DNA from: Myxococcota bacterium
Lineage (GTDB): Bacteria > Myxococcota_A > UBA9160 > JAFDDA01
Length of the DNA stretch: 64,000 bases
Direction of reading: 5' to 3'
Assembly: GCA_965228475.1 (NCBI GenBank)
Contig: OZ245817.1
Coordinates: 3,392,001 to 3,456,000 of the forward strand
Position numbers: made by a program. This document shows, piece by piece, positions 34,501 through 38,078 of the stretch. Numbering within the stretch: position 1 is the first letter of the stretch; each line of letters opens with the position of its first letter.

Positions 34501-37500
34501 TCGAGTTCCATTTCCAGGTTGAGCACCTGGTACCACTGGGTGAGATCGAAGTCGTCGGTCCCGTCGAAGTTGCGCGAGATCACGCGCGTCTGGTTCTCGT
34601 AGAACCCGTGGATCTGAAGCGGCCCGGCTTCGATGGCCTGCACGCTCGGCGCTGCAAGCAGCACACAAACTGCGACCCACGCCGACGCAAGGAAACGGCT
34701 CGAAATCTGCACCCCGCCCATGAAACCCTCCAGCAGACGGCCCGGGTTCGACCCGGCGCCCGTCGCGCGCCCCAGTAACGACACCGCCCTTATATGATGA
34801 AACGTTGCGTGATTACAACGGATTCTTGCGAGCGGACGATGTGGTGTAGGGGGGGTTCGGGCCCAGCGGTCCGAAACGCGGCGAACGACGCAGCGCGCGG
34901 CGCACTGCGTCATTCGCGGATCGGCGTCGCGGAATCCGGGCGAAGGCCCCGGATCCGGCTCGACGGACGACGCTGGAGTTCAGGTTTGGCGGGGGCTTGG
35001 CGCCGTCGGGGGCGCGCTTTCGGCTAGTCGTCGTTCTCGGGCGCCGACTTCCGGGCGGCGGCCTTCTTGGTCGTCTTCTTGGCGGCCGCCTTCTTCTTCG
35101 TGGCCTTCTTGGTCGTCTTCTTCTTGGCCGTTTTTTTCTTGGCGGTCTTCTTCTTCGCGGCCTTCTTCTTCCCGGAGGCGCGGGCGGCCTTGCGGCGGGG
35201 CTCGGCGCCCTCCGCCTTGGCGGGCGTCTTGCCCTTCTTCTTCTTGCCCTCCCCCCGCGGCTGGAACTCGAAGCCGTGGCGGCCGGTGTCCTTGAGCACG
35301 AGCGTCGCCGAGAACGGCCGCCCGAAGCGCGAGGTGAAGTCGGTCAGGAGCTCGGTGCGGCGGTTCGCCAGGTAGTGGAGCGCCTCGTCCCGGGTGATTT
35401 CACGCTTGCAGACCGTCCGCGGCAGGATGTAGCCGCAGGCCTTCTCGACCTTCTTCCGCCGCTTCTTCTTGACCGTCTTGCCTTCCTTGGCCGCGGCCTC
35501 GACCTCGGCGGCGAAGGCCTCTTCCTCGGCCTTGGCGATCTTCGCGAGCTCCTCTTCCTGCTTGAGCCGCGCCTCGCACTCGAAGGTCGTCGCGGTCTCG
35601 ACGATCGGGTGGTCCTCGCACATCGGGCACTGGCCGAGGGGCTCGGTATCGACGTCGTATTCGGGCGTCGCGCTCTCGCCTTCCTCGTTCCAGCCGACCG
35701 AGCGGACCTTCACCTTCCACTCGTCGCGGTCGAGCTCGAGCACGCCCTTGTAGGTGCGCCCGTTGCGCGCGGTGAAGCCGTCGAGGACGGGCGTCTCGCC
35801 GTGCTCGATCAAGGCCTTCACGGCGCCGCGATCCATGTAGCGGCCCGAGGTGTCCTTCCAGAAGATGACGGGCGGGTTCTCGTCGTCGTTCTCGCCCTCG
35901 GCCTTGTAGAACCAGGAGTGCTCGAAGACGGGCTTGCCGTTGCGCGGGTCCTTGCCGAGCGGCTCCTCGTCCCGGTAGAGCTCGTCGTACTCGAAGTGCT
36001 TGGCCACCTCGACGATCCCGCGCGCGTAGTCCTTGATGTCCTCGATGAACTTCTCGCCCGTGCGCTCGCCCTTCTCCACTTCGCGGAGCTGGAACTCGAG
36101 CTCACCGGTCAGGGCCGGCGAGGCGATGCGGTCGATGTCGGCGGCGTGGGCGCGCCCGGCCTCGGTCTTCGCCATGCGCACGAGGCTGTCGATCAGGCGC
36201 ATGCCTTTCACCGTCGGGCGAAGCGACTTCCCGAGCCGGACGGCGTAGCCCTTGGCGATCAGGTTCTCGATCACCTCGGCGCGCGTCGCCGGAGTACCGA
36301 TGCCCTTCTCGTGCAGCGCCGCGGAGAGTTCCTCGTCCTCGATCTGCTTGCCGGCGTTCTCCATGAGCGAGAGCAGGCGCGCTTCCGAGATGCGCGGGGG
36401 CGGCTTGGTCTCTTCCTCGCTCGATTCGACGCCGAGCGCCTCGACGGCGACGCCGCTCGCCTCGGTCTCGCCGCTGCGCAGGGCCGGCAGCGTCTCGGCT
36501 TCGTCGTCGCTCCCCGCCGGCAGGATCGCGCGCCAGCCGGGCGTGCGGAGCACGCGCGCCCGCGAGCGGAAGCTCTCCCCCGCGACCTCGGTGGTGCGCT
36601 CGACGCGCTCCCAGATCGCGACGGGGTGGAAGGTCGCGAGGAAGCGCCGGGTCACGAGGTCGTAGAGGCGGCGGTCGTCGCCGGAGAGCTCGCCCGAGGG
36701 CAGCGTTCCGGTCGGGATGATCGCGAAGTGGTCGGAGACGCCCTTGTCGTCGAAGGTGCGCTTCTCGTTCTCGAGCCCGTTGTCGATCAGGTTCTTCGCG
36801 GCGGTGGCGTACTCCGCGAGCGGCAGCGGCGCACTCCCCTTCCCTTCCGCGAAGCTCGCGAGGATGCCGTCGACGGTCTCGCGGTAGTCGTTCGGCAGGC
36901 AGCGGGAGTCGGTCCGCGGGTAGGTCAGGATCTTGTGACCCTCGTAGCAGCGCTGGGCGGCCGAGAGCGCCCGGCGCGCCGACCAGCCGAAGCGGCGGTT
37001 CGCTTCGCGCTGGAGGCTCGTCAGGTCAAACAGCGGCGGTGCACTCTCGCGCGAGGGCTTGCGCGTCTCGCTCGCCTCGGCGGGCTGGCCCGTCGTGGCC
37101 TCGACGATCGCGCGCGCGCGCTGCTCGTCGAAGATGCGGTCTTCCTTGGCGTGCTCGTCGTCGCCCGCCTTGAAGTTCGGATCGAACCACGTGCCGAGGT
37201 ATTCGTTGCTCTCGTGGGAGAAGCGCGCCTCGACCTTCCAGAAGGGCTTCGGGACGTGGGCCAGGACCTCGTGCTCGCGCGCCACGAGCAGCGCGAGCGT
37301 CGGCGTCTGCACGCGGCCGGCCGACCACGCGCCCGCCTCGCGCCGGCTCTTGAAACGCTTGGTGATGGCGCGCGTCGCGTTCATGCCGATCAGCCAGTCC
37401 GCGACGGAACGGCACTCGGCGGCGGCGGCAAGGCCTTCGAGCTCCTCGCCCGGCCGGAGGTTCTCGAAGCCGTTCTTGATGGCATCCCGCGTCATGGACT

Positions 37501-38078
37501 GGAGCCAGAGCCGCTTCACGGGCTTGTCGGACTCGAAGTACTTCAGGATCTCGCGGAAGATGAGCTCACCCTCGCGCCCGGCGTCGCAGGCGTTCACGAC
37601 GGCGTCGATGTCCTTGCGCTGGAGGAGCTTCTTGATCACGCGGATGCGCTCGCTCTGGCGCGCCTTCGGCTTCAGGGGAACCGTCTCGGGCACGATCGGG
37701 AGCACGTCGAGGGTCCAGCGCTTGAAGACCGGGTCGACCTCCTCGGGGCCGAGCAGCTCGAACAGGTGGCCGACCGCGAAGGTCAGGACGCGGTCGTCGC
37801 TCTCCCAATATCCATCGTGCTCTTCGAAGCCGCCGAGGGCCGCGGCGATGTCGCGCGCGACGCTCGGTTTCTCCGTGATGATGAGGTCCTTGCCCACGAA
37901 GCTCTCTCCCCCCTCGGTCGAGTCGTGATGGGGCGCACGGGTAGCCCGGCATTTCGAACCCATCAAATGGGTTGTTTTACACACGCCTCTCGGGGCCCCG
38001 GCGAGCGCCCCGTCCGCAACGCGTCGGATGTGGGCCCGCGAACTTGAGCCCGGCCCGCCCACCGGTTGAGCTCCTTGA

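What a model noticed while it worked through the whole genome (the two positions that open the first line are those of the whole stretch)
35024..37897. No TopA: a Topo III with Topo I-type C-terminal tail is the only type IA topoisomerase
This closed genome has no topoisomerase I (topA). Its only type IA enzyme, g03062 (957 aa), has a Topo III core followed by a Toprim_C repeat and a long lysine-repeat tail, so the set is gyrase + Topo VI + Topo III, with neither Topo I nor Topo IV. Loss of TopA is the rule in order UBA9160.
Evidence so far: One PF01131 gene only. g03062 scores 821/653/593/509 bits on four Topo III models against 190 on TIGR01051 TopA (cut 456); Swiss-Prot best hits are TopB. 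TopA found in 12 of 61 order genomes, 11 of them in one family; absent from the two complete ones, G000 and G032. Lysine repeats seen in the sequence; they are described for actinobacterial TopA (PMC5714199, abstract). PMC7140829 (abstract) says Topo I is found in all bacteria. Searches 33, 42, 200 found no TopA-less lineage.
(Added by a program. Inside this text positions count along the whole contig: contig position 3,392,001 is position 1 of the stretch shown here. "Call 12" and the like, gene names such as g00115 and contig names such as C1 are that model's own, and its searches are not shown. The text may have been shortened before it was handed on; [...] marks where a part breaks off. 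The agent that wrote the report below was given it as the finding of a first reader that could run no searches.)

Follow-up and report, generated by a model that had tools for sequence, protein, structure and literature searches.

The report
Topoisomerase III that replaces topoisomerase I
This bacterium lacks topoisomerase I, the DNA-relaxing enzyme that reviews say every bacterium has, and carries instead a long-tailed topoisomerase III of a subfamily that seems to fill that role in several unrelated groups, including the well-studied Burkholderia family.

Summary
Confirmed: the single-contig genome has one type IA topoisomerase, a 957-aa Topo III (PRK08173-like), plus gyrase and Topo VI; no TopA, Topo IV or Topo IB was found. 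Two corrections. The tail is not a Topo I-family tail: it is zinc ribbons, two PF13342 repeats and a lysine tail. And the loss is not peculiar to this order. In 112 order genomes, 43 have TopA, 66 this Topo III, none both; TopA there is an E. coli-like import, and the Topo III gene is cleanly missing from its conserved locus in a TopA-bearing genome. The same clade stands without TopA in 119 of 120 Burkholderiaceae genomes and 10 of 10 genomes from other lineages; TopA was found in only 4 of 61 Verrucomicrobia-class and 6 of 51 Patulibacter-class genomes. Published Tn-seq supplements list the Burkholderia Topo III as essential in four of five strains, although Topo IV is present. Best reading (0.75): a Topo III subfamily that does TopA's job. 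Activity is untested; relaxation by Topo VI/IV is not excluded. Not found in print in 10 searches; the scan's earlier notes do not report it.

The parts
35024..37897 (-). Gene for the 957-aa long-tailed topoisomerase III, the only type IA topoisomerase found in the genome
37902..37915 (-). Purine-rich, Shine-Dalgarno-like run before the GTG start
   Evidence: sequence; function inferred
37505..37885 (-). Toprim domain (residues 5-131); Glu9 followed by the Topo III-type Lys (TEKPS); DxD-type acidic motif near residue 105
   Evidence: criterion from PMC10969213
36044..37438 (-). PF01131 type IA core (residues 154-618)
   Evidence: 352.7 bits
36917..36922 (-). Catalytic Tyr326 followed by the Topo III-type Pro (TYPRTD)
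   Evidence: criterion
36305..36358 (-). Insertion aligned to the E. coli Topo III decatenation loop (residues about 514-531; loop name recalled); absent in TopA; net charge -3 here against +2 in E. coli
35858..35965 (-). First zinc-ribbon module (about residues 645-680); four Cys in most relatives, all four lost in this genome
   Evidence: alignment A1
35690..35857 (-). First PF13342 Toprim_Crpt repeat (about residues 681-736)
   Evidence: two stretches; limits read from the alignment
35432..35635 (-). Second, intact C4 zinc ribbon (Cys757, 760, 774, 821) with a charged helical insert of about 45 residues
   Evidence: zinc binding inferred
35264..35437 (-). Second PF13342 repeat (residues 821-878)
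35024..35260 (-). Lysine-repeat tail (78 aa, 29 Lys) ending in acidic residues
37972..38886 (+). Divergent nucleoside-phosphorylase-family (PF01048) gene; conserved neighbour that marks the locus
31185..34913 (-). DUF1302-domain gene; conserved downstream neighbour that marks the other side of the locus

Best explanation
The gene encodes a member of one Topo III subfamily (NCBIfam PRK08173/PRK14724 neighbourhood) that has taken over the main type IA slot from TopA. Shown: a Topo III core with intact catalytic residues; a C-terminal string of zinc ribbon, PF13342 repeat, zinc ribbon, PF13342 repeat and basic tail; one clade across TopA-less lineages; either-or distribution with TopA. Inferred: the core cleaves single-stranded DNA and passes a strand as Topo III does, while the added C-terminal modules hold the passing strand and keep the enzyme on DNA, as the zinc ribbons and lysine repeats of TopA do, so that it relaxes transcription- and gyrase-made negative supercoils and limits R-loops. 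Chromosome unlinking falls mainly to Topo VI (here) or Topo IV (other genomes). In this order the subfamily is ancestral and was displaced again where an E. coli-type topA arrived by horizontal transfer.
For: Either-or in the same 112 order genomes (>=90% complete): TopA 43, this Topo III 66, both 0, neither 3. In the same 151 Burkholderiales genomes (>=97%): TopA 80, PRK08173-type 73, both 2 (one with a divergent 488-bit TopA, one with a sub-cut-off 704-aa TopB), neither 0. TopA over cut-off in 1 of 120 scored genomes of the Paraburkholderia family. 10 of 10 named genomes picked for having the subfamily have a single type IA match and no TopA. These enzymes form one clade (FastTree 1.0; 0.98, with the Patulibacter/Gaiella pair as sister at 0.95), whereas TopBs that sit beside a TopA fall outside. 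Synteny: speA-hisS-FG-GAP-phosphorylase-topo III-DUF1302 in TopA-less genomes; the same block without the topo III gene in single-contig, TopA-bearing G232. The order's TopA is 65-67% identical to E. coli TopA against 38-44% for other TopAs of the phylum and has E. coli's domain set. Within the order both occupants carry the basic tail (median K+R in the last 60 aa: 25 in 16 Topo III, 24 in 19 TopA; 11 in 7 TopB-RecQ fusions and 4 accessory TopBs). Tn-seq supplements: 'DNA topoisomerase III' essential in B. cenocepacia K56-2 and J2315, B. thailandensis and Caballeronia insecticola, with parC/parE present and no topo I row in the two genome-wide tables (PMC5729917, PMC4993015, PMC10809759), whereas E. 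coli topB is dispensable (PMC7140829). Lysine repeats give Streptomyces TopA its processivity (PMC5714199).
Against: No activity was measured for any member. Every TopA-less genome whose type II set I checked has Topo VI or a Topo IV-like pair, and extra Topo IV rescues topA-null E. coli and B. subtilis. The core meets Topo III criteria and keeps the decatenation-loop insertion. The gene was scored non-essential in B. pseudomallei and in one of three LB passages of J2315. I did not align the Tn-seq genes themselves; their membership in the clade is inferred from annotation, length and position after gyrB. The lysine tail is weak in Binatia and some Verrucomicrobia copies, and the first zinc ribbon has lost its cysteines here. 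An 820-aa plasmid TopB of the same clade occurs in Xanthomonas beside a TopA. Related genomes are not independent samples. For some searches only TopA was scored, so I did not show that each TopA-less genome there has this Topo III.
Confidence: 0.75

Rival explanations
1. TopA was lost because a type II enzyme (Topo VI here, Topo IV in Burkholderiales) relaxes negative supercoils; the long Topo III remains a decatenase and R-loop/recombination resolvase, kept because one type IA enzyme of either kind is needed.
For: Topo VI in 76 of 112 order genomes; the four Topo VI-less, TopA-less genomes tested have two GyrA/ParC and two GyrB/ParE genes; Topo IV overproduction rescues topA and topA topB nulls, and Topo I and III back each other up (PMC7140829); the active site is Topo III-type.
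Against: The type II slot (VI or IV) changes independently of the type IA slot. Ordinary TopBs coexist with TopA, while this clade is lost when TopA arrives. The gene is essential beside an intact Topo IV in four Burkholderiaceae strains.
Confidence: 0.17
2. These lineages run a weak gyrase or a low supercoiling set-point and need no dedicated relaxase; the long tail is only a DNA-holding adaptation of GC-rich genomes.
For: Lysine repeats are discussed as a feature of GC-rich genomes (PMC7398561, PMC5714199); G000 is 70% GC; the imported TopA has the tail too.
Against: It does not explain the either-or pattern or the essentiality; accessory TopBs of the same order and phylum mostly lack the tail. 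Supercoiling levels were not testable here.
Confidence: 0.06
3. topA exists but was missed: assembly gap, frameshift or divergence beyond the profile.
For: G000 is 96.14% complete and its closure was not shown; the search tool warns that long queries miss 2-3 weak matches in 100.
Against: Six-frame searches find nothing else; 64 of 66 genomes outside f10 and 119 of 120 Burkholderiaceae agree; TIGR01051 passed its cut-off in 10 of 14 control genomes; two genome-wide Tn-seq tables list no topo I.
Confidence: 0.02

Closest known systems
NCBIfam PRK08173 / PRK14724 'DNA topoisomerase III' (Burkholderiales chromosomal topB, e.g. B. cenocepacia BCAL0462)
   Same: Best-scoring family (821 bits); about 45% identity over the core; same zinc ribbon/PF13342 double module and basic tail; same clade; also without TopA.
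   Different: G000 is below the equivalog cut-off (1058); it has a longer lysine tail, a helical insert in ribbon 2 and a cysteine-less ribbon 1; its partner decatenase is Topo VI, not Topo IV. The family is annotated only as Topo III; one review counts the Bordetella pertussis enzyme among 'TopA homologues' with lysine repeats (PMC7398561).
E. coli topoisomerase III (TopB; TIGR01056; PDB 1d6m)
   Same: Best solved relative (E 1.5e-85, 33% identity); Lys after the Toprim Glu, Pro after the catalytic Tyr; acidic-loop and decatenation-loop insertions present.
   Different: E. coli TopB is 653 aa, has a short CTD without zinc fingers (PMC5714199), is dispensable and accompanies TopA; the loop is basic there and acidic here (not diagnostic: Bacteroides TopBs are acidic too).
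Bacterial topoisomerase I (TopA; TIGR01051), especially Streptomyces/Mycobacterium TopA with lysine repeats
   Same: Probable role; tandem small C-terminal modules; lysine-repeat tail ending in acidic residues as in Streptomyces TopA.
   Different: 189.5 bits against a 456.4 cut-off; 27% identity to E. coli TopA; no PF01396, PF08272 or PF13368 hit; on the Topo III side of the tree.
Bacteria with gyrase + Topo VI and no Topo IV (PMC11302465)
   Same: Type II set of G000.
   Different: The passages I saw treat type II enzymes only and have no mention of 'topo III'.

Membership tests
Type IA topoisomerase | Toprim domain plus PF01131 core with catalytic Tyr | tested here: met
Topo III subfamily | Lys directly after the first Toprim Glu (PMC10969213) | tested here: met
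   TEKPS, residues 8-12
Topo III subfamily | Pro directly after the catalytic Tyr (PMC10969213) | tested here: met
   TYPRTD, Tyr326
Topo III subfamily | Groups with bacterial TopB, not TopA, in a tree; insertion at the decatenation-loop site | tested here: met
Topo III subfamily | Decatenase activity, poor relaxation of native supercoils | not testable with these tools
   needs biochemistry
NCBIfam PRK08173 equivalog | Score above the curated cut-off of 1058 bits | tested here: not met
   821 bits; 0 of 112 order genomes pass, 72 of 151 Burkholderiales do; same clade, not the equivalog
TIGR01056 topB / PRK07726 | Score above cut-offs 515.75 / 597 | tested here: not met
   509.3 and 592.7 bits, just below
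Bacterial Topo I (TopA) | TIGR01051 above 456.4 bits | tested here: not met
   189.5 bits
Bacterial Topo I (TopA) | C-terminal PF01396 (Topo_C_ZnRpt) or PF13368 (Topo_C_Rpt) repeats (PMC9369019) | tested here: not met
   no hit at E<=10 for residues 630-890
Bacterial Topo I (TopA) | C-terminal modules share the fold of TopA CTDs | tested here: inconclusive
   model pLDDT 88.6; Foldseek rank 1 is M. smegmatis TopA 6pcm at E 0.33; VIA-align rows were filled by the helical insert
Actinobacterial TopA lysine repeats | Long Lys-rich repeat tail ending in acidic residues | tested here: met
   78 aa, 29 Lys, acidic end; a likeness of composition, not family membership
Reverse gyrase or TopB-RecQ fusion | Fused helicase domain | tested here: not met
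   no helicase family hit; TIGR01054 92.8 against 471.7 bits

The most novel reading that the evidence does not exclude
Bacteria have a third, unrecognised housekeeping type IA subfamily: a Topo III with zinc ribbon/PF13342 repeats that is the only type IA enzyme and the main relaxase across whole families and classes (most of this order, Burkholderiaceae, most sampled Verrucomicrobia-class and Patulibacter-class genomes, and members of Nitrospirales, Binatia, Silvanigrellaceae, Planctomycetales and Fibrobacter), and that has swapped with TopA repeatedly in both directions, so that 'Topo I is found in all bacteria' is false on a large scale.
Probability: 0.65. Interest if true: 0.88.

Novelty: new variant of a known kind. 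Interest (0 to 1): 0.8.

Why it matters
Three reviews state that every bacterium has Topo I and that Topo III is an optional second enzyme (PMC2647321, PMC7140829, PMC10969213). The genomes searched here contradict that for whole families, including cultured, genetically tractable ones. This gives a natural experiment on a long-standing question, namely what makes a type IA enzyme a relaxase or a decatenase (core or C-terminal modules), and it can be tested now in harmless Burkholderiaceae. It also means that supercoiling control in Burkholderia, Ralstonia, Bordetella, Nitrosomonas and Verrucomicrobia cannot be read off the E. coli model, and that a gene annotated as the dispensable 'topB' is an essential enzyme in several of them, which bears on drug-target work aimed at TopA.

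Tried and rejected
Missed or broken topA: searched by profile and by E. coli TopA/TopB in six frames, nothing; a first, exhaustive run timed out without output. Searches with only the N- or C-terminal part of E. coli TopA found nothing, but the N-terminal query did not find the Topo III either, so that check is weak. Topo IB as substitute: none. Topo VI as the cause of TopA loss: distributions do not match. A genome with gyrase + this Topo III alone, which would have been decisive: the four Topo VI-less genomes tested all have a Topo IV-like pair. Acidic decatenation loop as a marker of the clade: Bacteroides TopBs share it. Fold of the C-terminal region: Foldseek no match at E<=0.001, VIA-align no Z>=5; ESM Atlas returned only PF13342 clusters. 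Cluster look-up gave no organism names. A motif search for dnaA failed and was replaced by tblastn; closure of the contig stays unshown. G001's match is a truncated-looking ORF in a 68% complete genome and was not used. Literature: 10 searches found no paper describing TopA-less bacteria; PMC7242696 was not held; subscription papers and bioRxiv supplements could not be seen and may already note this. No expression data or complex prediction was run.
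Full report
1. The observation. Window 37897-35024 (-) gives an open 957-aa protein with Toprim (5-131), PF01131 (154-618) and two PF13342 Toprim_Crpt stretches. E. coli Topo III is the best solved relative. Both residues that PMC10969213 gives as Topo III marks are present (Introduction read). G000 (1 contig, 96.14% complete) has one PF01131 match, confirmed by six-frame tblastn and phmmer with E. coli TopA and TopB, one GyrA/ParC, a Topo VI A gene beside a Top6B-like ORF and no Topo IB. 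I could not show that the contig is closed.

2. Anatomy of the tail. An alignment of 31 C-terminal regions shows zinc ribbon, PF13342, acidic linker, zinc ribbon, PF13342, basic tail, in this order's proteins and in Burkholderiales alike. G000 has lost the four cysteines of ribbon 1 and has a charged helix inserted in ribbon 2. PF13342 is not the PF13368 repeat of actinobacterial TopA described in PMC9369019 (part 1 of 6 and passages read); neither PF13368 nor PF01396 is hit. The model is confident (pLDDT 88.6), but the fold searches were inconclusive. The last 78 residues hold 29 lysines and end acidic, like the Streptomyces TopA tail that confers processivity (PMC5714199, passages).

3. The order. 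In the 112 genomes at least 90% complete, TopA (E<=1e-100) is in 43, of them 41 of 46 in family f10, and the PRK08173-type Topo III (E<=1e-190) is in 66. The family tallies and listed handles do not overlap: both 0, neither 3. The extra type IA genes seen in some genomes are TopB-RecQ fusions (3 scanned) outside the clade. The order's TopA is 65-67% identical to E. coli TopA, against 38-44% for the other TopAs fetched from the phylum, and groups with it: an import. In TopA-less genomes the Topo III sits in a conserved block between a phosphorylase gene and a DUF1302 gene; in single-contig, TopA-bearing G232 the block is there and the topo III gene is not. G089 and G038 also show the phosphorylase without a topo III hit, but their far flank is not conserved. 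The sister order (2 of 2 sampled) and two further families of the phylum also lack a TopA over cut-off, while 45 of 61 phylum genomes have one. So the Topo III state is ancestral in the class and was reversed by transfer (inference).

4. Beyond the order. The best NCBIfam model suggested Burkholderiales (lead recalled, then tested). Paraburkholderia genomes G101 and G102 and Bordetella petrii G103 hold only TopB-type enzymes, while Xanthomonas and Bacteroides controls hold a TopA. TopA passes its cut-off in 1 of 120 scored genomes of the G101 family (one more genome was not scored, two 0.2-Mb genomes have no match at all, one has a 376-bit divergent copy). In 151 genomes of that order TopA is in 80 and PRK08173 in 73, with 2 atypical overlaps and none empty. 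Profile-guided scans found the subfamily in named genomes of many groups (80 loci kept of about 600 in each). Ten that I picked (two Binatia, Nitrospirales, Silvanigrellaceae, Fibrobacter, Patulibacter defluvii, Planctomycetales, Opitutales, Nitrosomonas halophila, Massilia haematophila) each have one type IA match and no TopA. TopA was found in 4 of 61 genomes of the Opitutales genome's class and 6 of 51 of Patulibacter's class (only TopA scored). Two Sphaerochaetaceae with a more distant TopB have TopA as well. FastTree trees of the core (65 and 62 sequences, rooted on TopA) put the enzymes of TopA-less genomes in one clade, with a plasmid-borne 820-aa TopB inside and the TopBs that accompany TopA outside. 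These are quick trees, and kin are not independent.

5. Function. Supplement rows of three Tn-seq papers (supplements searched; for main texts only term counts were seen) list DNA topoisomerase III as essential in B. cenocepacia K56-2 and J2315, B. thailandensis and C. insecticola, non-essential in B. pseudomallei and in one J2315 passage; Topo IV is present, and the two genome-wide tables have no topo I row (PMC5729917, PMC4993015, PMC10809759). The C. insecticola main text never mentions topoisomerases. That these genes belong to the clade is inferred from annotation, size and position. E. coli topB is dispensable, Topo III can back up Topo I, and extra Topo IV rescues topA loss (PMC7140829, passages). 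Topo VI is in 76 of 112 order genomes and varies independently of the type IA gene; five Topo VI-less genomes tested have two GyrA/ParC genes. So there are two slots, TopA or long Topo III, and Topo IV or Topo VI. The basic tail follows the main type IA slot within this order (medians 25 and 24 K+R against 11) but is weak in some other TopA-less lineages, so it is probably a helper and not the key change.

6. Mechanism and odds. Most likely (0.75) the enzyme is the cell's ATP-independent relaxase: Topo III chemistry (shown by sequence) plus C-terminal DNA-binding modules that engage supercoiled DNA (inferred by analogy). The main rival (0.17) is that Topo VI or IV relaxes and that any one type IA enzyme suffices for R-loops and unlinking; I found no genome that excludes it.

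7. What is known. PMC2647321 (passages) says all bacterial genomes have an omega-like Topo IA and calls Topo III a second enzyme; PMC7140829 and PMC10969213 say the same. PMC7398561 (passages) notes lysine repeats in a Bordetella pertussis 'TopA homologue'; by the B. petrii result that enzyme is probably this Topo III (inference; B. pertussis not tested). Topo VI without Topo IV is in print (PMC11302465, passages). Ten searches found no account of TopA-less lineages; closed literature was not seen. The protein family is known to annotation pipelines; its place as sole type IA enzyme is what appears new. The scan's own notes hold no such report.

8. Verdict. Real and larger than reported: a new variant of a known kind. 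Interest 0.8.

Noticed in passing
window 24666-34913 (-): Three tandem ORFs of 1078, 1080 and 1242 aa, each with a weak DUF1302 hit; a homologue flanks the topoisomerase locus across the order.
   Followed up: partly
L082-L089 (G050, G070, G093, G065, G044, G085, G018, G025): Topo III-RecQ helicase fusions of about 1320-1500 aa (DEAD, Helicase_C, HRDC in the three scanned) are the second type IA gene in several genomes of the order, mostly TopA-bearing ones.
   Followed up: partly
L002-L019, L165: The imported E. coli-type TopA carries a lysine-rich tail that E. coli TopA lacks (median 24 against 12-13 K+R in the last 60 aa); it occurs in three families (f8, f9, f10).
   Followed up: partly
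G053, G006, G048, G068, G232 (L116-L120): Topo VI appears swapped for a Topo IV-like pair in genera g8, g27 and g57; the two type II decatenases may also be either-or in this order (5 genomes checked).
   Followed up: partly
L072 (G192), L164 (G315): A divergent 809-aa TopA-like protein (488 bits, 32% identity to E. coli TopA) occurs in two Burkholderiales genomes that keep the Topo III; possibly mobile.
   Followed up: no
L090 (G101), L091 (G103): The Paraburkholderia gene lies near def-fmt and the Bordetella gene near DUF494 (smg), the neighbourhood where topA often sits (recalled).
   Followed up: partly
L310, L288: Archaeal MAGs (one labelled Poseidoniaceae) carry relatives; L310 falls inside the bacterial clade.
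   Followed up: no
G110, G135: Two 0.2-Mb genomes of the Paraburkholderia family have no type IA match at all.
   Followed up: no
L098 (G001:C1:657000-665000): The topo III match covers only PF01131 positions 5-185 and is followed in frame by a ClpB D2-small domain, in a 68% complete genome; broken gene or misassembly.
   Followed up: no
window 38900-42042: A HIT-domain frame (about 38920-39210, +) and an FG-GAP ORF on the - strand whose long reading frame overlaps hisS in antisense; the real FG-GAP gene is probably the part below about 40700.
   Followed up: no
G000 whole contig: dnaA (4.62 Mb) lies about 280 kb from gyrB-gyrA (4.90 Mb); the cumulative GC skew peaks at 2.35 Mb and is lowest at the contig end.
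   Followed up: no
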